Source of the DNA: Octopus vulgaris
Lineage: Eukaryota
Assembly: GCA_951406725.2 (NCBI GenBank)
Contig: OX597823.1
Coordinates: 88,474,001-88,538,000 of the forward strand
Direction of reading: 5' to 3'
Length of the DNA stretch: 64,000 nucleotides
In this document: positions 85 to 55,919 of the stretch, in pieces
How positions within the stretch are numbered: the stretch's first letter is position 1
How the letters are laid out: every line of letters starts with the position of its first letter
Notes under the pieces: model-generated
The model's input: the letters and a program-made list of their open reading frames with translations, nothing else
What the model was told of the DNA's origin: nothing
Database searches by the model: none
Program-made: the position numbers and the translations under genes

Positions 85-275
85 CCACGTGTGTATCGTT
101 GGCGATTTTCTTTCTCCGTCTCCCCTTCTTTGGACTTTTCTATATTTCTGATGAAGAGCTGCGCTCGAAGCGTGACATCCTCTTTCTTTTCTTTCCTTTC
201 CTGAGCGTCCAATAACAATGTACTTTTATCCCCCGCCCTCGCGTTGTTGTTTTTCTTGCTTGTTCATGTTTGTAT

Positions 276-281
<6 letters not shown>
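81..281 (+). mobile_element. Short non-coding HHR-bearing element (Penelope pLTR/retrozyme-like), degenerate copy
   Basis: Homologous to 7478-7687. Contains CTGATGA-A-GAGC-TGC-GCTC-GAAG-CGTG (148-174) with GAAA mutated to GAAG. Lies between (GT)n and (TA)n. Confidence 0.6.
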
Positions 282-326
<45 letters not shown>

Positions 327-7477: not shown

Positions 7478-7687
7478 ATGTGACCGCGTGTGTACGACTG
7501 GCAATTTTTTCCTCCGTCTTCCCGTCCTTGGATCTTTCCTTTTCCTATGTTTCTGACGAAGAGCTCCGCTCGAAACGTTAAATCCTCTCTCTTTCTTTCC
7601 TTTCCTGCGCGTCCAATAACACTATACTTGTTCCACGTCCCCGCGTTGTTGTGTTTTCTCATTGGGTTTTCATGTTTGGATTAACTA
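7478..7687 (+). mobile_element. Short non-coding HHR-bearing element (Penelope pLTR/retrozyme-like)
   Basis: Homologous to 81-281 and to the reverse complement of 49640-49732. TA-rich flanks. Confidence 0.7.
7549..7583 (+). ncRNA. Minimal type I hammerhead ribozyme
   Basis: GTTT-CTGACGA-A-GAGC-TCC-GCTC-GAAA-CG-TT-AAAT. Palindromic AACGTT stem III as in Penelope-associated minimal HHRs. Stem I is weak. Confidence 0.7.
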
Positions 7688-8053
7688 TATTATATATTCA
7701 GTTGCTATAAAAATATATCTTCTGCCTCTGTTGAATCTTTACTTTCGTCTCTGCTACTGTCTGCCGTTATCTGTCAATCTCAGCCAAGGCAAGAGAAGGC
7801 AAGGCATAGCAAATATTTCACGATGACCCAGCCAGAGTTGCCCTGGATGAAAGACATTTCTTTATGTCCGTCAAACAAAAGTGTTGAATCTTCAGAAAAA
7901 TACGAGTGACATCAAAATAATGAATTACTGTTGTATTATTTATGCGAAAAATATTATATCGAATATAAAACCATGAGTGTTTGTAAAACGAACATAGAGA
8001 CACGCGTTTTCGTCATCATTTTCATATAGTTGAAAAATATACTGAAACAAGAT

Positions 8054-33397: not shown

Positions 33398-34030
33398 ATT
33401 ATTATTATTGTTGTTGTTGTTGTTGTCGTCGTTGTTGATGTTATTGTTGTTGATATTAGTGTTATGTGATGAAAACTCACAGCTTATTTTGCGGGGTAAA
33501 ATGGAAAGTATCAGCTGTCCACAGCCAGCAGGCGAAGATGACATTTGTTTACTAGAGATGCTTCAAGTACCCTGCGAAGAATTCTTACAGTTCCAAGCAA
33601 TGCTGATTTTTGGTTTTTTATTGTTCTACCTTCACACTTGCACCAGTCTTTTTCAGCCACGTTGGTAGTTGAGTGCTGATACTTCCAAGTGCACCAATTA
33701 CGCATAGTATCACGTCTAATCTCTTCACTGAGCACAGCCTACATACTGCCCACTTCAAAACATCATGGTTGTTTCAATTTTTCTTCTTTAATATTCATCC
33801 TATTGTCACTGAGGCACGCTGTCGATTACTCTGAATGCTCTTTCTTTTTTATTCACCAATCTAAGTCCGGTTTCCTATGTTTCGTCGGGTGATCGCATTG
33901 GAGCATTGCATCCCACAGGATTTTGCAATTCTTATTCTCTGTGACACCTTCCGGGGTTTACTCATACCACATCCTTGCACTTTGTAGGCCGTGATTTCCA
34001 CAGAGTTCCCAATGAATCATCCTTATCACA
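33398..34030 (-). mobile_element. 3' end of an RLE-type non-LTR retrotransposon (R4/Dong-like), decayed
   Basis: Minus strand IHWELC..WYE*TPEGVTENKNCKILWD..RKPD and C-terminal QKSALLGTVRILRRVLE, followed by a (CAA/TAA)n tail. Confidence 0.7.
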
Positions 34031-44039: not shown

Positions 44040-44455
44040 TTCCTTTACTACACACAAGGGGCTAAACACAGAGAGAGAGGACAAACAAAGACAGGCAAAC
44101 GGATTAAGCCGATTATATCGATGCCAGTGCGTAACTGGTACTTATTTAATCGACACCGAAAGGATGAAAGGCAAAGGTCGACCTCGGCAGAATTTGAACT
44201 CGGCACGTAGCGGCAGACGAAATACCTATTTCTTTACTACCCACAATGGGCTAAACACAGAGAGGACAAAGACGGACAGACAAACGGATTAAGTCGATTA
44301 TGTCGACCCCAGTGCGGAACTGGTACTTATTTAATCGACCCCGAAAGGATGAAAGGCAAAGTCGACCTCGGCGGAATTTGAACTCAGAACGTAGCGGCAG
44401 ACAAAATACTGCAAAGCATTTCGCTCGGAGTGCTAACGACTCTGCCAGCTCGCCG
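44040..44455 (-). mobile_element. SINE family B, dimeric
   Basis: Same organisation and GAAATACC|TATTTCTTTAC junction as 19287-19700. Confidence 0.85.
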
Positions 44456-46000
44456 GCTGCACATCCTCAATCGTCGTTGTCAGCCAATTCTCTAATAATT
44501 TATTATATTTCATTCTGTTGTTAGGTACCTTGTTTTTCAATGAAGAAACACTGTCGCCGGTGTTAAGGTGGTAGAATCTTTAGAGAGTTGTAAAAAAATA
44601 TACTATTCATTAAGTATTTGAGTCGATGTATCGAATACCACCTTCCACCAAACTGTTAGTCTCGTGCCATAATTAGATAAAATTATTATTGTTGTTTGGC
44701 ACTTGTCCTATAAAGTAAACATCCGCCCTTTCCCTATACATTTACATTGATTTTATTCGAATGAACAGCAGAAAAAATAAACTTGGAATATTTGGCTTGT
44801 GAACGGTTTAAATGGAGAAACTATTCAGTTTGTCTCTGTAATATTTATCAATTCACCGTCCTGTTCTTGGGGAAATATTGATCGGTCTTTCTAAGAATTT
44901 TTAGCGTTGAAATAAATGATTTTAATGAATGCCTGTTAGGTTATATACATATTCTTCCTTGAAGGTACAAATAATTTATAGATTTTATTGATAAATTAAT
45001 GCATCGAACACAGTAGATTTTTCTTAGGATTTCTGAAGAGAAAAAGATTTAATAAGTAGAAATCGATAGTTGTCACAGAAAAAAAATACCATATCAGAGT
45101 TTCAATTATTTTTATATTTATTCGATAAATTGGTAAATCAGCCGGAAGGAATTATTGAATTTGCTAATCAAGAAGACTTTCTGTTTGTTTTATTTGATTC
45201 ATTCCCTCATTTTCCTTCATGAGTGTGAGCAATCTATGTTAGGATGTGTGCAAAAATAAGACAAGGTGTCAGGCTAATTGAAGGATTCGATTCGAGAATT
45301 TTAATTGATATTCAACCTAATATATTACAATTATTCACGCACAACTGATGCAGCGCGGACGGTGAATGACAAAGACTGATTTAATAAAGTTACTCTCTTG
45401 TTGTTGTTGTTGCTGTTGTTGTTGTATATTTGTTTATTCTCAAGTCAGACCTCTTCAGCAGACATAAGATCAAAAGCGCTTCGAAAAAGACTATTGCGTT
45501 TTCATAAAGATTTATATCTTTATTATGCTCTATGGGTCTTTTCTTTTAAACAGTGTGCAATGATTAGTGAGTGAGTTCTTTGATCATTCTGGGAACGAAT
45601 GCATCGACCTTCTGTGTACTTTATCAAGTTGTTATTGCCATTCAGCACTACACTGCCCTGCGTGAGTGAAACTATGATAAAGGCATTCAACTAATTATCA
45701 TACTGTCCTTTCTATAGCAATGGATGTGTTTTTCCATTCTTTTTTGTTCTGTAGGACGTCACAGTGGCTAAAACAGTCAACAGGAAACCATAACATAAAT
45801 AAATGTACAGCAATCCATATCGCTGTTCACCTATTGCGGTTTATTATTGAAGCCTAATTCCTCCATCGTGTTGTTTTACATTTATGATGAAATAAATGCA
45901 TACAGATTATAAAAATAATTTATGATATATACATAGCGTACAGTACTGATTCTACTTCGCGGATTTAGACCAATCGCGGTGGGGTTTCAAACGTAATACC

Positions 46001-46228
46001 TATTTCTTTATTACCCACAAGAGGCTAAACACAGAGGGGACAAACAAGGACAGACAACCGGATTAAGTCGATTACATCGACCCCAGAGCGTGACTGGTAC
46101 TTAATTCATCGACCCCGAAATGATGAAAGGCAAAGTCGACCTCGGCGAAATTTGATCTCACAACGTAACGGCAGACGAAATACCGCTAAGCATTTCGCCC
46201 GGCGTGCTAACGTTTCTGCCAGCTCGCC
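46001..46228 (-). mobile_element. SINE family B monomer with perfect 16-bp TSD
   Basis: TTTCAAACGTAATACC at 45985-46000 and 46229-46244. Confidence 0.9.
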
Positions 46229-48329: not shown

Positions 48330-48762
48330 AGGCAACGAACAGGCAGACACGTTAGCACTCCGGGCGAAATGCTTAGCGGTGTTTAACTCCTTGTGGGTAG
48401 TAAAGAAATAGGTATTTTGTCTGTCTTTACGTTTTGAATTCGAATTCCGCAGAAGTCAACTTTGCCTTTCATCCCTTCGGGGTCGATAAATTGACTACCA
48501 GTTGCGTACTGGAGTCGATCTACTTTACTGTCTCCATCCCCCAAAAATTTCGAGCCTTGTGCCTGGAGTAGAAACGAACATTCTTTTATTAGCAGTATTT
48601 CGACTGCCTTTACGTTCTGAATTCAAATTCCGCTGAGGTCGACTTTGCTTTTCATCCTTTTGGGGTCGATAGATTAAGTACCAGCTGCGTACTGGGGTCG
48701 ATCTAATCAACTGCCCCGCTCCCCAAAAACTTTTGGGCCTTGTGCCTAGAGTTGAAAAGAAT
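48330..48762 (+). mobile_element. SINE family B, multimeric
   Basis: tRNA head at 48330-48380, then two bodies of the TTTGCCTTTCATCC..GGGGTCGA type (~48420-48575, ~48595-48760). Confidence 0.8.
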
Positions 48763-49568
48763 ATTGCTTTGTACTTCGTTCACTGGATGCAATACTACTT
48801 ATAATTTATTTCGAATCCTTTACATTTATTGCTAATGCTAAGTTTGTAACTGCTCGTTGATCGATAGTGTATTAAGTCAGCAAATATACGTTTTTCTTTC
48901 TCGTAATTGGACTCCATTTGCAATAAACCAACATATTTTAATCTAAAATAGTGACATGAAAATATAAATTGCAAACCTTTAGCAGTTAAAATCTTAATAA
49001 TATGCTGACTTCATATCTAATTTATACCACAGAAGGTAACTACGAATCAGTTAAGTCGCATATCATCTATAATATAAACTACAGATACATAGATACCATC
49101 ATTTCGCTATGCTTACAACACTATAAAAATTCCTGTTCACGACTCAGTGAACAACAGTTAATATTTTCTGATTAATTAGATCGTCTTGAAAAATGAAGAT
49201 AATCCAATAACTTTTGTCTAACACCAACACTAACCAAAAATCAAAAGCATTAGAACGATATTTCTTCCTTCCTACCGATTTCGATTTCTATTGTGTGAAT
49301 ATTTCATGATCCTAGTATATCATTAGGCCAATTCTCGCATGCATCTTTTGATGTCAGTATCACATTCAATCACACAAAGATATTTTCCAATATCATTTTC
49401 ATAAGTCCTGGATCACTTCCAATATATCTACGGCTCCACTGTCACTTAAACATTCCCAGCCTTTCGCTGGCCATCTCTTAACCCTTACACGCAGTTATAC
49501 AGAAGCAATGAAACAATACACACGTTCCTAACTACCGTTGATTTAAATGCTGCCACCCAACGCCCGCT

Positions 49569-49618
<50 letters not shown>

Positions 49619-49639
49619 CACACACACATATATATATAT

Positions 49640-49732
49640 GGTTAATCCAAACACAAAAACACGAAGAGAAAACACAACGTGATGACTTCGAACAAGTATA
49701 GTGTTATTGGACGCTCAGGAAAGGAAAGAAAG
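49640..49732 (-). mobile_element. 3' fragment of the 81/7478 HHR element family
   Basis: Reverse complement matches CTTTCCTTTCCTGAGCGTCCAATAACA(C)TATACTT...TGTTTGGATTAAC. Confidence 0.65.
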
Positions 49733-49854
49733 AAATATATATATATATATATATACCAGAGTAAGGACAGAAATGTTAAACAAGGTGGAAAATGGCACTG
49801 GAATACCGGAGGTAGAATATGTTTTATTATTAAAGGTGCAAAAACATCACAAAA

Positions 49855-49898
49855 AAGTTATTACTCAGAGTTTCATGTTCTCGATCGTCGGACAGTTT
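49855..49898 (-). ncRNA. Second copy of the U4C hammerhead, stem II degraded
   Basis: Reverse strand AAACTGT-CCGACGA-TCG-AGAA-CAT-GAAA-CTCTGAG-TA-ATAACTT. Confidence 0.45.
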
Positions 49899-50238
49899 TG
49901 GTTGAGAATATTTTGCTTGGAGGTGTTTTTATATAAGTATGCATGCATCAAAGTTTGCATGTTTAGTGCATATTTTAATTAGATTTAATTTACCATTAGT
50001 TAATTTACTCTGAGTATATATGTTGTTACTTTCTAACTGACGTTAATTTTGATATAACGTTTTCTTCAATTTTCTTATAATTTTTAAGTCGTGATTTTAA
50101 TATTATGTATATGACCGCTTCTTAAAAAGACCGTCATTTGAAAGGACCAATGAAACGAAACTAATTTCAAATGTGTGTCTGTCAATGTATATTATATATT
50201 TATAAATATAACATTAATTTTTTGTTCAATTCTCAACC

Positions 50239-50282
50239 AAACTGTCCGACGAACGGGAACGTGAAACTCTGAGTAGTAGTTT
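50239..50282 (+). ncRNA. Minimal type I hammerhead, U4C core variant
   Basis: AAACTGT-CCGACGA-ACG-GGAA-CGT-GAAA-CTC-T-GAG-TA-GTAGTTT; all three stems pair. Confidence 0.65.
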
Positions 50283-52302
50283 TTTGTGGCATTTTGCAGC
50301 TTTAATAATAAGGTGTATATATTTGTATGTGTGTGTGTGTGTGTTTGTGTGTATTTGTTTTTATCGTCTCCATGTGTATGCTTTGACGAATGAACAAAGG
50401 ACAAGTGACCAAAATGTCAACATCCCTTTCTTTATTTCGCAGTATAATACATTGATTTTGTGTTGATGTTGTGCGTATCTTTGTCATTCTGTTTTGGGAA
50501 TTAATAAAATTCCTTCGTTATGCGCACACACAGACACACACGCACATACGAACCTCGGGATGTTGGCAAAGATCTGGCTTCATTTAAGCAGATATGGATT
50601 TTTCCATTTATACGATATGCTAATTAACAGATAGTTTTAAAGATAACTTCCCCTTTACCTCCCTCTTCTCTCTCTCTCTCTCGTTTTCTCTCTCCCTCTC
50701 TCTCCCTACCTACCTATCTCTCTTTCACATACATATACACACGCAAACAACTAATCTGTACACTCACAAACATACACGCAAACAAACCAGCGCACAACTC
50801 ATTATTCGTTGATCTTTTGGTCTTCGAAAAATATTTCGTTTTATCGCAAACCGTCTAATTGTGGTTTACGTCTTGTCTCCTCCACGATAACCTCAGTAAC
50901 ATAATCTAATTGTTTCATTCATAAATTTCCACCTCCTTCTTAGCCTTTGCTAATGATGCTACATTCGTGCATAGTTTTCCTAACCTTTACCTCGATGTGA
51001 TATATATAATCTAATGCAACATCATTTCAAACAACAAGTAACCACTTGCTACTGTATTAATCTAGTTTCGTTGAGGGAAAATATAACCTCCCATACACTA
51101 ATTCTTCTTTAAGAAGTCATGAATTATATTCTTAAACTACTTATCTCTATGTGCGAAAGCATTTTGTTAACTCAATATATATAGCATTTATTTCCTACTA
51201 CGTGAATGTAATGTTTCTGGTGTAATTGGATATAAGCTTCCTGCTTTATCTATGTCATTTCTTAAGATAGAATCTCAAAGATGAATTGTATCTTTTAGTA
51301 ATTCATATTTTCTTTGTAGTTTCTTATCGGTTTTATAGATATCTATTTATGATTGTGCTGTTGAAGCTATTTTGAGATGTTTTACATATATTGTAAGGAA
51401 AAACGTCACAATTAGGCAGGCGTTATACTGTGATGATCCTCCGGAATTTGTTTTTTCACTTCAAGATTTGGATTCGATTCCGATGCTTTGCATCTATTCT
51501 CGTCTGAAAATAATACTATTTATTACACTAGATGCAGTTCAGTCGATTATAAATATCATAAGATGTGGGGCATATTTGATCATCTTCCTGATCTATCTAT
51601 GCCATTTCTTAAGATAGAAACCAGAAAATGGTTTGTGCTTTTTATATAGATTTTGTTTTCTATTTTATAGACATTTTATTTATGGCTGTTAAAAGGAGGC
51701 CAACTGGCAGAATCATGAGCACGTTGGATAAAATGCTTTTGGCATTACTTCAGGCTATTTACGTTCTGAGTCCAAGTCCTACCGAGGCCTCCTTTACCTT
51801 GATATGCAGCCTTGAATCAAAGGAGGCAATCATAATGCTAATCCTTGTTTATAAGGCAAAATCGCTTTTGTTGGCTACAACGTACTATAATCAAGTTAGT
51901 ATTCAATTAAAAGGACAATGCAAGTACAAAAAGTACAATGCGAGTATAAAATGTACAATGCAACGGTACAATGGTCTGGTGCTCACCGAAGTTTGTGCAA
52001 CTTGATTCTTGTGTGAAAATAATGGATTGTTATGCACATGCAAAATGAATGATTGTCTTAGCGATTCCTGTCTTGATTTCGTTAAATAAGTAACACATCC
52101 TGCGATAGATTTAAGAACGAATATGTCGAAAACTATAAATAATATAATATTATCCAATAATATATTATTCAAACCACCTACGAAGACTAGTTAGTTGCAA
52201 GAAATAAGAGCTAAAATCTCACTAAAATTATAAGCTTTTTCGTTATAAATACATTATTTACAGTTGATGGATATTTGCCCTGTCCTCATCTTGATTGTTG
52301 TT

Positions 52303-52348
52303 AACACAACGTTTCGGCTGATGTACTCTCCAGCCTTCTTCAGATGTC
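52303..52348 (-). ncRNA. Minimal type I hammerhead ribozyme
   Basis: Reverse strand GACAT-CTGAAGA-A-GGCTG-GAGAGTACAT-CAGCC-GAAA-CG-TT-GTGTT. Confidence 0.75.
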
Positions 52349-52408
52349 TTGAGGAAATTTCGAACCTGAGTTCTCATTCCTAAGATATTTTTCGATCTTC
52401 TTCTTCTT

Positions 52409-52453
<45 letters not shown>

Positions 52454-52642
52454 GTTGTTGTTGTTGTTATTATTCAGGTCACTGCTGTAATCGAACTCGG
52501 AATCTTGGGGTTAGTATCCCTCAATACAGTAACCATAAGAGCATCACAATAAACCACACCACATACCCATGGCACACAGAGCTGCGCTCGGGAGTGAAGT
52601 GAATGCACTCAATAAATATAAAACTACTGAATAATAATAATG

Positions 52643-52707
<65 letters not shown>

Positions 52708-52752
52708 GAAAAATACCTTAGGAATGAGAACCCAGGTTGAAAATTTCCCCAA

Positions 52753-52798
52753 GACACCTGATGAAGGCTGGTAGGTATATCAGCCGAAACGTTGTGTT
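52753..52798 (+). ncRNA. Minimal type I hammerhead ribozyme
   Basis: GACAC-CTGATGA-A-GGCTG-GTAGGTATAT-CAGCC-GAAA-CG-TT-GTGTT, with palindromic AACGTT stem III. Confidence 0.8.
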
Positions 52799-53676
52799 AA
52801 CAAATAAGATGAGGACAAATATCCGTCAAATCTAAATAATGTAAATGATGTACATAATTCCCCATCTCTTAAATATAGAACTGTATTAGGAATACATGCC
52901 TCAATACTAAATTACTGATACTTTCCGATTTTATTCGTTTATTTCTTTGGCTAAGAGCTTGTTTTCTGCTATTTATATAAACCTAATCATTCGACACAGT
53001 CACAGATTTCAAAATATAATGCAAGATTTCATACACAGCAAAATAGATTCTGATATTAATAGATAGTTAGACATACAGACAGACAAACAGATAGATAGAG
53101 GGAGGGAGGGAGAGCGAGATAAAAGACACACAGAGAGAGTGAGTGAGGGTTTAAGGAAACAAAACAGAGACATCAATTATGAATTCAATTTTCTGTTCAC
53201 TTCCTCAGCAGATTACACGATATGACCCTTATTGTTTCCTCATTATTTTTTTACGTCCGTTTTCTATCAGAAATCGTTCATATTATTCGTTAGACCACTC
53301 TATTAATAAAAGGTTATTTCAAGAATGATGTGTACTCTGCTAAGGCATGGATTTTTATAGCAAGCGTTGTCTTATTACATTTTAATTAAAAAATAAATAA
53401 TAGGCACGGAATTCTTCAGAAAACATGGGAATGTCCTAGCCTTACAGATGCCTAAGTAGTGCATGTACGGCAAAGTCAATATGTAAACAAGCATACACAT
53501 ATCCATATGCATATACACATACGCATACGCGCACACACACATACTCTCAAACACACACCCATGGATGTAGTGCTCCGAGAAACAGCAACGAAGCTACATA
53601 CAAAGGGGCAAATACAGTGATACATACACATATATAGAGAGATAGATAGAAATATATGTAAGATACATATATACAC

Positions 53677-53840: not shown

Positions 53841-55919
53841 ATATTGTTATATTTCGGAATGGTCATATTGCCAGTTTAGCCAATAAAAACACACGCACTA
53901 TATATTTGGTGTTATTTTGCTTCAGTGATATTTATTTTTTACATTAATCTTAATCTTATTTCGGCAAAGTTCTTTCGTCACACTCCTGTGACCGCATCAG
54001 TGGTCCTTTGTTTTCTTCTCACTTACTTGTGTCTCTCCTTACTAACCGTCAGCCATTTTGTATTTCTATTGTATGTCTTCATTTGCGCATGCTTATATCT
54101 CTATGTGCGTCTATGTTTATTTAATGTGTGTGTGGGGATGCCTGTAATATTTGTATCTTCTGGTTATATACATTCTTGTAATTTGTATTTTGTTTTTGTT
54201 GTTGTTGCTTTTGTTCTAATTTTGTTCATGTGTTTACATCCACCCATTATTATCATTACATATGCTTGTATGTATGTATAACAACAATATTAGTAATAAT
54301 AATAATAAATCTAATCGAAAAAAAAAAAAAAAGAATATACATATACATATATATATATACATACATATACATATACATATACATATATATACATATATAC
54401 ACACATATATACACATATAGATATTCATTTCTATTTCTTTAATTACCTGTGTATTTATTATGTTTGCAGGATCCACTATTGTCATATGTTGTGGTGTGCG
54501 CTATTGCTCCATTCTAGTTTTCTATTCAGGCTAGGTTTATTTTCTATTATATGTGTAGCTTCTGTAATTTGTCTAATTGTTGCATCTGTTCTATGTGTGG
54601 ACAATATCTTAATCTCTATGTTATTGATTGATCCCCCGTGTTCTTGTTCGGCGTGTTGGTACAGAATCGATGAGCTTTTACCTTCCTTGAGTTGTCTCCA
54701 ATGTTCATTCACCCGCTCACCAATGCTTCTTGCAGTTTCCCCTACGTATGTTACTGTCTTGTTACTGCATCGTCCCTCTATACATCTTATACTATAGACC
54801 ACATTTCTGGCTTTACAGTTCGTTTGTGGGCTAAATCTACATACAGTGCAATAGTTATCCGTACAGAGAGTTCTACTAAAAGGATAGCTTCTACCAATTA
54901 TAGATCTGATAGGGTTGCCTGGCTTTTCAACAACCTTAATTCTTAGTTTAAGTTTATCTAGGGTCCTTCTAAAGCGGTACGCTAGTTCACCTCCAGGAGT
55001 GGTGTCAACGAACATGACACTCTGGTATTTATGGCTATCATACCAAGAGTTGGCCTTCCCTATTTTCTTTTTTGTCCTTTCTATAGTGTTCCATGACTTG
55101 TTCCTATAGAGTGGGCAAATCCCATTCCTATCATTACATAATATATTATCAAATTTCTTCATGGCTCCTTTGTATACAACAATTAGACAAATTACAGAAG
55201 CTACACATATAATAGAAAATAAACCTAGCCTGAATAGAAAACTAGAATGGAGCAATAGCGCACACCACAACATATGACAATAGTGGATCCTGCAAACATA
55301 ATAAATACACAGGTAATTAAAGAAATAGAAATGAATATCTATATGTGTATATATGTGTGTATATATGTATATATATGTATATGTATATGTATATGTATGT
55401 ATATATATATATGTATATGTATATTCTTTTTTTTTTTTCGATTAGATTTATTATTATTATTACTAATATTGTTGTTATACATACATACAAGCATATGTAA
55501 TGATAATAATGGGTGGATGTAAACACATGAACAAAATTAGAACAAAAGCAACAACAACAAAAACAAAATACAAATTACAAGAATGTATATAACCAGAAGA
55601 TACAAATATTACAGGCATCCCCCCCACACACACACTAAATAAACATAGACGCACATAGAGATATAAGCATGCGCAAATGAAGACATACAATAGAAATACA
55701 AAATGGCTGACGGTTAGTAAGGAGAGACACAAGTAAGTGAGAAGAAAACAAAGGACCACTGATGCGGTCACAGGAGTGTGACGAAAGAACTTTGGCCGAA
55801 ATAAGATTAAGATTAATGTAAAAAATAAATATCACTGAAGCAAAATAACACCAAATATATAGTGCGTGTGTTTTTATTGGCTAAACTGGCAATATGACCA
55901 TTCCGAAATATAACAATAT
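53841..55919 (-). mobile_element. 5'-truncated Penelope-like element with inverted pseudo-LTR
   Basis: Near-identical ~742-bp inverted arms (53841-54582 / 55177-55919) around a 594-bp coding spacer; left flank (TA)n; GIY-YIG ORF. Confidence 0.92.
54482..55273 (-). CDS. Penelope-like retroelement ORF C-terminus: Cys-rich linker plus GIY-YIG endonuclease (5'-truncated; first ~32 aa derive from the inverted arm)
   Basis: CTDNYCTVC linker; NVVYSIRC..C..YVGETARSIGERVNEH; HAEQEH (CCHH); RQITEATHI..SLN; uninterrupted frame. Confidence 0.88.
   Translation of the reverse strand: MLWCALLLHSSFLFRLGLFSIICVASVICLIVVYKGAMKKFDNILCNDRNGICPLYRNKSWNTIERTKKKIGKANSWYDSHKYQSVMFVDTTPGGELAYRFRRTLDKLKLRIKVVEKPGNPIRSIIGRSYPFSRTLCTDNYCTVCRFSPQTNCKARNVVYSIRCIEGRCSNKTVTYVGETARSIGERVNEHWRQLKEGKSSSILYQHAEQEHGGSINNIEIKILSTHRTDATIRQITEATHIIENKPSLNRKLEWSNSAHHNI

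What the first reader, a model, noticed from the sequence alone, without database searches (positions are those of the whole stretch)
49822..50313. Inverted HHR pair with non-canonical CCGACGA (U4C) core in both arms
Seen: both arms read CCGACGA in place of CUGANGA although they differ at many other positions, so the variant predates their divergence. The plus-strand copy retains stems I, II and III and a GUA site. Known: U4 belongs to the conserved hammerhead core (uridine turn). Inference: a natural core variant in a Penelope-associated family that consensus-pattern searches would miss.
Basis: partly seen in the sequence, partly recalled or inferred. Interest (0 to 1): 0.7.

Follow-up and report, generated by a model that had tools for sequence, protein, structure and literature searches.

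The report
Retroelement hammerhead family with C4 core
This is a decayed fold-back copy of a very abundant animal repeat, likely the end piece of a Penelope-like jumping gene, whose small hammerhead RNA motif carries a C at a core position where almost all hammerheads have U; the C appears to be the norm for the whole repeat family, but whether the RNA still cuts itself is untested.

Summary
Observation confirmed. Both arms read CCGACGA (50246-50252 +; 49891-49885 -). The plus arm forms a type I hammerhead: 3-bp stem II, palindromic stem III, GUA site. The minus arm is decayed. Agreement between the arms is weak evidence: they are one insertion and also share three letters that the family lacks.

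Contigs from four genomic runs (three organism labels) pile on the core about 15,000-19,000-fold over single copy. No U4 row appears among the 40 differences shown, whose lowest peak share is 43%; 152 rows were hidden. C4 therefore appears to be the family's majority state (inferred from a truncated table). The free position N7 does switch, to 71% U in one organism. Family stem I is Watson-Crick.

The architecture fits Penelope-like insertions (inverted truncated copy, one-sided tail, microsatellite target), but no ORF was linked. U4C itself is in print as a minority viroid variant. In eight searches I found no retroelement family with C4 as the norm; two key papers were not held. Most likely a slow ribozyme needing a dimer or protein help; this locus is a fossil. 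New variant of a known kind; interest 0.5.

The parts
50240..50281 (+). Type I hammerhead motif, plus arm: stem I 50240-45/50276-81, C4 core, stem II 50253-55/50260-62, GAA 50263-65, palindromic stem III 50266-74, A17 at 50275
50246..50252 (+). Core box CCGACGA; C4 = 50247; N7 = 50250 (U in 71% of laid depth in run X19, 3-5% in X1, X2, X5)
50275..50276 (+). Predicted cleavage site, after GUA (not tested)
   Evidence: hammerhead numbering applied to the sequence
49911..50313 (+). Longer 5'-truncated copy of the repeat element (about 400 nt of its 3' end, without the tail). The spacer is element body: paralogous contigs cover it at 1-3-fold, rising to about 1,000-fold at 50142-50160. Boundaries approximate.
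49822..49910 (-). Inverted short copy (minus arm), truncated about 19 nt upstream of the core; C4 = 49890; stems I and II decayed
49757..49821 (-). Likely 3' extension ('tail') of the family, present on the minus copy only
   Evidence: depth 350-1,600-fold at 49762-49799, similar to the adjoining arm; a paralogous contig spans 49801-49913; loose-end consensus at 49816 follows the window
49738..49756 (.). (TA)n microsatellite at the left end, likely the insertion target
50314..50345 (.). TA/TG microsatellite at the right end
50007..50016 (+). Second exact copy of the stem III palindrome plus A, about 260 nt upstream; predicted to pair with stem III; role unknown
   Evidence: expected 2-3e-4 by composition; pairing probability about 0.74 in a 49915-50313 transcript

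Best explanation
The 49757-50313 stretch is a head-to-head pair of truncated copies of a very abundant repeat, likely the pseudo-LTR end of a Penelope-like retroelement, and its hammerhead motif carries C at core position 4, likely as the inherited majority state of the family. In the active source elements the motif would work as other Penelope hammerheads do: a long Watson-Crick stem I and a self-complementary stem III would let two copies on one precursor RNA pair, probably with help from the element's protein, and cut slowly after GUA. C4 would weaken but not abolish cutting. This particular locus is a fossil: the minus arm has lost stems, the plus arm has two wobble pairs where the family has Watson-Crick pairs, and a read-through RNA would fold arm on arm. 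Shown: motif, arms, high abundance, majority letters at the listed positions. Inferred: C4 majority, Penelope membership, single insertion event. Untested: transcription and cleavage.
For: Motif and stems. Laid depth at 50256-50274 is 14,999-, 17,626- and 19,424-fold the single-copy orthologous contig in X1, X2, X5 (a rough measure, not a copy count). Of 192 difference rows, 40 were shown; their lowest peak share is 0.43, and in 50239-50275 only N7 (50250) is listed. No row appears at 50247 or 49890, so U4 is at most about 43% in every run if rows are ranked by peak share, and lower under ranking by depth or mean share. In X19, U7 is 70.7%, so at least about 28% of depth is U7 without U4: a second expansion kept the variant. 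That row also shows that mismatches 3 nt from position 4 were tolerated in the laying. Majority letters at 50238 (A, 98-99%), 50276 (A, 70-83%) and 50277 (C, 94-97%) give a stem I of at least 8 Watson-Crick pairs, read by eye. Stem III self-duplex is -7.9 kcal/mol, while the 9-mer alone forms no hairpin. 14 of the 15 joints shown (138 hidden) link the minus arm to the plus arm, which points to other head-to-head copies. An inverted truncated copy, a one-sided tail and microsatellite bias are described for PLEs (PMC8557442 passages; PMC4209133). U4C keeps a viroid infectious (PMC3088659 passage citing Ambros & Flores 1998).
Against: The C4 share was never printed; it is bounded from the display cut-off of a truncated table, and depth favours the most amplified subfamilies. 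No RT or GIY-YIG sequence is linked: 0 of 6 spacer frames hit Pfam, and the neighbouring Penelope-type relic shows no similarity. The tail here is about 65 nt, against 30-40 bp in print. All single changes in CUGA gave low activity in a type III hammerhead (PMC9901934 passage). Stem II is only 3 bp and opens with A-U rather than G-C. In the anole PLE, catalytic mutants did not impair insertion in vitro, and no RNA-seq reads ended at the cut site (PMC11167929 passage), so cutting may not be selected. The window's plus arm folds as a monomeric hammerhead at +1.0 kcal/mol against an MFE of -5.3.
Confidence: 0.55

Rival explanations
1. C4 is the family's majority state, but the ribozyme is catalytically dead or nearly so. 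A master element acquired C4 and spread anyway because cleavage is not needed for retrotransposition; the fold may persist as a protein-binding or folding signal.
For: HHR catalytic mutants did not affect insertion in vitro (PMC11167929). Naiad PLEs proliferate without canonical HHRs (PMC8557442). CUGA mutants show low activity. Stem II is short.
Against: Every other core and stem position in 50239-50275 stays at the plurality letter in three organism labels, and the only listed switch is at N7, the free position. Family stem I is Watson-Crick. U4C is tolerated in viroid-like RNAs. This is weak, since a few master lineages give few independent chances to mutate.
Confidence: 0.25
2. The element is not an autonomous Penelope-like element but a non-autonomous passenger (retrozyme- or SINE-like) that is mobilised by Penelope proteins and carries the C4 hammerhead.
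For: No ORF trace in the spacer. Core depth is about 6-40-fold above the adjoining bins, and 5' loose ends are heterogeneous (agreement 0.43-0.52). Animal retrozymes are proposed to derive from pLTRs (bioRxiv 10.64898/2026.07.22.740005, part 1 of 5 read).
Against: No tandem repeat here. The depth step can come from clipping at this copy's private mismatches (50238, 50276, 50277). A pLTR need not carry recognisable coding sequence.
Confidence: 0.13
3. C4 is a one-off or minor-subfamily mutation of the donor, copied into both arms at insertion, and most family members have U4.
For: The arms come from one insertion and share three other non-majority letters (50234, 50238, 50277 and their minus-arm counterparts). 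152 difference rows were hidden.
Against: Those shared non-majority letters were listed at 92-99%, whereas position 4, at about 200,000-690,000 depth, was not listed in any of 4 runs.
Confidence: 0.07

Closest known systems
Hammerheads in the pseudo-LTRs of metazoan Penelope-like elements, variants with a small palindromic helix III (Cervera & de la Pena 2014, PMC4209133); closest listed architecture is Marsupenaeus japonicus
   Same: Type I topology, palindromic helix III predicted to need a dimer, AU-rich flanks, pairs on opposite strands 100-700 bp apart. The shrimp motif also has A10.1-U11.1, no extra base after A9, and A17.
   Different: All 56 of 56 motifs in their Fig. S3 have U4, though they were found with U4-requiring descriptors and homology. 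Their family-level core variant is U3-A8. Here position 4 is C, stem II is 3 bp with a GGAA loop, and helix III is a 9-nt palindrome.
U4C hammerheads of peach latent mosaic viroid (Ambros & Flores 1998, not held; known via PMC3088659 and PMC9608096) and of the citrus viroid-like RNA CtaHVd-LR1 (four variants)
   Same: The same core substitution, reported as compatible with self-cleavage and infectivity.
   Different: Those are minority variants of RNA replicons with loop-loop contacts. Here C4 appears to be the majority state of a genomic DNA repeat family on the order of ten thousand-fold abundant.
PLE insertion architecture: inverted 5'-truncated copy, one-sided tail, microsatellite target (Craig et al. 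2021, PMC8557442; Frangieh et al. 2024, PMC11167929, author name recalled)
   Same: Head-to-head truncated copies, an extension on one end only, TA/TG microsatellite flanks.
   Different: The extension is about 65 nt rather than 30-40 bp, and no ORF is present at this locus.
Non-LTR retrozymes (PMC7229834)
   Same: Short non-coding, low-GC repeat with a type I hammerhead at high copy number.
   Different: Retrozymes are short tandem repeats with mostly canonical motifs; this locus is an inverted pair, not a tandem.

Membership tests
Type I hammerhead ribozyme | Three helices around the core, open at stem I | tested here: met
   plus arm; minus arm decayed
Type I hammerhead ribozyme | C3-G8 pair, G5, A6, A9, G12, A13, A14, A15.1-U16.1, H17 | tested here: met
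   no majority change listed at these positions
Type I hammerhead ribozyme | U4 of the CUGA turn | tested here: not met
   C in both arms; a natural exception is in print
Type I hammerhead ribozyme | G10.1-C11.1 pair | tested here: not met
   A-U here; also A-U in the shrimp PLE motif
Type I hammerhead ribozyme | Match to an Rfam hammerhead model | tested here: not met
   no hammerhead hit at E<=10; the three U4 minimal motifs' family was also missed at 52343/52758, so this test has little power
Type I hammerhead ribozyme | Self-cleavage after H17 | not testable with these tools
   needs an in vitro assay or raw RNA reads
Penelope-like element | RT plus GIY-YIG ORF | tested here: inconclusive
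   0 of 6 spacer frames hit Pfam; the copy is only about 400 nt and no full-length member was available
Penelope-like element | Hammerhead with short palindromic stem III near the 3' end | tested here: met
Penelope-like element | 5' truncation with adjacent inverted copy | tested here: met
   14 of 15 shown joints link the two arms
Penelope-like element | 30-40 bp tail on one end | tested here: inconclusive
   one-sided extension present but about 65 nt
Non-LTR retrozyme | Tandem repeats of a short unit, each with a hammerhead | tested here: not met
   no tandem copy in the window; the rest of the genome could not be tested
Non-LTR retrozyme | Expression as circular RNA | not testable with these tools
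   no raw RNA run was available to lay

The most novel reading that the evidence does not exclude
A retroelement lineage amplified ten-thousand-fold in several related animals (octopus-type) has fixed C4 in a working hammerhead and kept it through at least two separate expansions. It compensates with a long stem I and a strong palindromic stem III, and perhaps with an upstream copy of the stem III palindrome that tunes folding in cis. This would be the first large natural family in which the CCGA turn is the functional norm, invisible to standard hammerhead surveys.
Probability: 0.4. Interest if true: 0.68.

Novelty: new variant of a known kind. Interest (0 to 1): 0.5.

Why it matters
Whether Penelope hammerheads need to cut at all is an open question: activity is low in vitro, protein-assisted, and dispensable for insertion in the one reconstituted system. 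A family that amplified massively with a core change known to slow cutting is a natural experiment. If C4 constructs cut, the hammerhead consensus and search descriptors should be widened, and genome surveys have missed large families. If they do not, a very successful family runs on a dead ribozyme, which supports a non-catalytic role. The locus itself is an ordinary decayed insertion.

Tried and rejected
No genome is held for this window, so no per-copy count was possible.

Pattern scans with position 4 free: metagenomes gave 4 loci, rejected as chance (GC 44-55%, at most 16 nt similar). Bacterial genomes gave 0 and then 1 locus, rejected (match limited to 29 nt, no 5' core or stem I partner). 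Viral contigs gave 0 twice.

Rfam found no hammerhead. Single-strand folds of the arms were unremarkable (z +0.27 to +1.87), which is expected for a dimer-type motif. nhmmer found no other copy of arm, spacer or tail in the window. The CCGACGA at 33888 (-) did not pass the structure scan and is taken as chance.

No RNA holder was listed. An argument from CpG decay toward U4 was dropped: CpG observed/expected in the window is 0.94. The pile-up of copy ends at 50239-50240 could not be separated from alignment clipping at this copy's private mismatches. The family-majority version of the ribozyme was not folded; its stem I was read by eye.

The family motifs were absent from the one supplement file held for PMC8557442 and for PMC13282606; file S2 of the former (HHR alignments) and the repeat library of the latter were not seen and may bear on novelty. 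Ambros & Flores 1998, Lunse et al. 2017 and Arkhipova et al. 2017 were not held.

Full report
Observation. The plus arm reads stem I 5' strand (50240-45), CCGACGA (50246-52), a 3-bp stem II with a GGAA loop (50253-62), GAA, the palindrome 50266-74, A17 (50275) and the stem I 3' strand. The minus arm has the same core at 49891-49885. The arms show 74 identities, 11 mismatches and 3 gaps. A scan that required stems but left position 4 free found 4 motifs in the window: this one and three U4 minimal hammerheads at 7553+, 52758+ and 52343-. Simulated windows gave 0.033 each, over 30 simulations. The minus arm failed that scan because stem II keeps only 1 of 3 pairs. Rfam found no hammerhead here.

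Why two arms prove little. The arms point outward from a junction near 49910/49911 and most likely come from one insertion, so they count as one observation. At their divergence a 7-nt box stays identical with probability 0.38. They also share three letters that the family majority lacks (50234, 50238, 50277 and counterparts).

Family-level test. No genome is held. I laid contigs of 4 of the 24 listed runs (X1 and X2, organism A; X5, organism C; X19, organism F) on 49762-50324 at 80% likeness; 2,686, 3,372, 2,976 and 2,873 contigs were laid. The locus itself is present in X1 and X2 (0 differences over about 440 nt) and in X5 (3 in 416 nt). Depth at 50256-50274 is 14,999-, 17,626- and 19,424-fold that of these single-copy contigs; the tool warns that this is not a copy number. 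The difference table showed 40 rows and hid 152. The shown rows have a lowest peak share of 0.43 and include rows of very small depth, which fits ranking by peak share. Within 50239-50275 the only row is C7-to-U: 3-5% in X1, X2, X5 and 70.7% in X19. There is no row at 50247 or 49890. U4 is therefore at most about 43% in each run under that ranking, and lower under ranking by depth or mean share. In X19 at least about 28% of depth is U7 without U4, so a separate expansion kept the variant. This is an inference from a display cut-off, not a count, and it is weighted toward the most amplified subfamilies.

Family fold. Majority letters at 50238, 50276 and 50277 replace the window's two G-U pairs and give at least 8 Watson-Crick pairs in stem I (read by eye). 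Stem III cannot fold alone but forms a self-duplex of -7.9 kcal/mol with a central U-U, the dimer-type design described for Penelope hammerheads (PMC4209133, main text parts 1-2 of 4 and supplement parts 1-2 of 3; PMC6765202 passages).

Element. Depth falls 5' of the motif to about 1,000-fold at 50142-50160, about 12-fold at 50104-50122 and 1-3-fold further up, the gradient expected from 5' truncation, though clipping at private mismatches contributes. The minus copy continues at 350-1,600-fold depth to the edge of the laid stretch (49762) and, by the sequence, to a (TA)n at about 49757. The plus copy stops at 50313 in a TA/TG microsatellite. Of 15 joints shown (138 hidden), 14 link the minus arm to the plus arm with shorter spacers, pointing to other head-to-head copies. 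An inverted truncated copy, a one-sided tail and microsatellite bias match PLE descriptions (PMC8557442 passages). No ORF was found in 6 of 6 spacer frames, so membership rests on architecture. That the host is an octopus is my recollection from its SINEs and microsatellites; no call names it.

This locus is a fossil. The monomeric hammerhead fold of the plus arm is +1.0 kcal/mol against an MFE of -5.3. In a transcript spanning both arms, the arms pair with probability 1.0 and all three stems fall to 0. In the plus copy alone, stem III pairs with the upstream palindrome at about 0.74. The arms are antisense and cannot be dimer partners.

Literature on U4C. PMC3088659 (passages) says U4C considerably lowers activity in vitro but keeps a viroid infectious, and that U4 contacts the A6-N7 phosphate. 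PMC9608096 (passages) reports CCGA in four variants of a viroid-like RNA and says the PLMVd change did not affect self-cleavage; the two accounts differ, and the original paper was not held. PMC9901934 (passages) found low activity for single changes in CUGA. PMC13481778 (passages and section 5) uses CYGANGA and reports C/T degeneracy in untested predictions. A protonated C can replace U in another RNA's U-turn (PMC4105743 and PMC6061696, abstract openings in the listing; passages of the former); this is only an analogy. PMC11167929 (passages) shows a protein-assisted PLE hammerhead whose cleavage is dispensable for insertion in vitro. Passages of PMC6155905, PMC7229834, PMC3376415, PMC6962438 and PMC13282606 added no C4 case. 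All 56 of 56 PLE motifs in Fig. S3 of PMC4209133 have U4. Eight searches found no retroelement family with C4 as its norm; Lunse 2017 and Arkhipova 2017, the likeliest places, were not held. Earlier notes of this scan list 14 findings with U4C, of which the 8 shown are all phage hammerheads (not checked here).

Verdict. A real hammerhead motif with C4, probably family-wide, in a likely Penelope-type repeat. A slow, dimer- or protein-dependent ribozyme in source elements: 0.55. Dead but carried along: 0.25. Non-autonomous passenger: 0.13. Donor-specific change: 0.07. The substitution is known; its apparent majority status in a very abundant animal repeat family is what is new. Interest 0.5.

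Noticed in passing
window 50007-50027 (+): An exact second copy of the stem III palindrome plus A. With the C that paralogous contigs carry at 50019, what follows resembles the stem I 3' strand with two extra bases, like a leftover 'substrate half' of the hammerhead. Only 2-3 paralogous contigs per run cover it.
   Followed up: partly
window 53841-55919: A young Penelope-type relic: inverted arms 99-100% identical, GIY-YIG fragment on the minus strand (Pfam E 5.5e-4, below the gathering score). Both arms hold a hammerhead-like motif (55759 +, 54000 -) with core CTGATGC, i.e. C in place of A9, a stem II and GAAA: possibly another core variant.
   Followed up: partly
window 52298-52803: A second inverted pair (86% complementary, 174 nt) with canonical U4 minimal hammerheads at 52758 (+) and 52343 (-).
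   Followed up: partly
window 7553-7697 (+), 49627-49735 (-), 183-292 (+): A U4 minimal hammerhead family; the piece next to the studied insertion starts just after that family's predicted cut site and is separated from the C4 element by (TA)n.
   Followed up: partly
window 59344 (-): CTGATGAAGTGAAG...GAAACG, a hammerhead-like core that failed the stem scan; possibly a decayed copy.
   Followed up: no
window 44074-44454, 45988-46228, 48412-48770: Several copies of a SINE-like repeat in both orientations; recalled as an octopus SINE, not tested.
   Followed up: no
window 50235-50249, table 5: 12 of the 14 shown arm-to-arm joints re-enter at 50235-50249, at the 5' edge of stem I; this may be a real truncation hot spot or alignment clipping.
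   Followed up: partly
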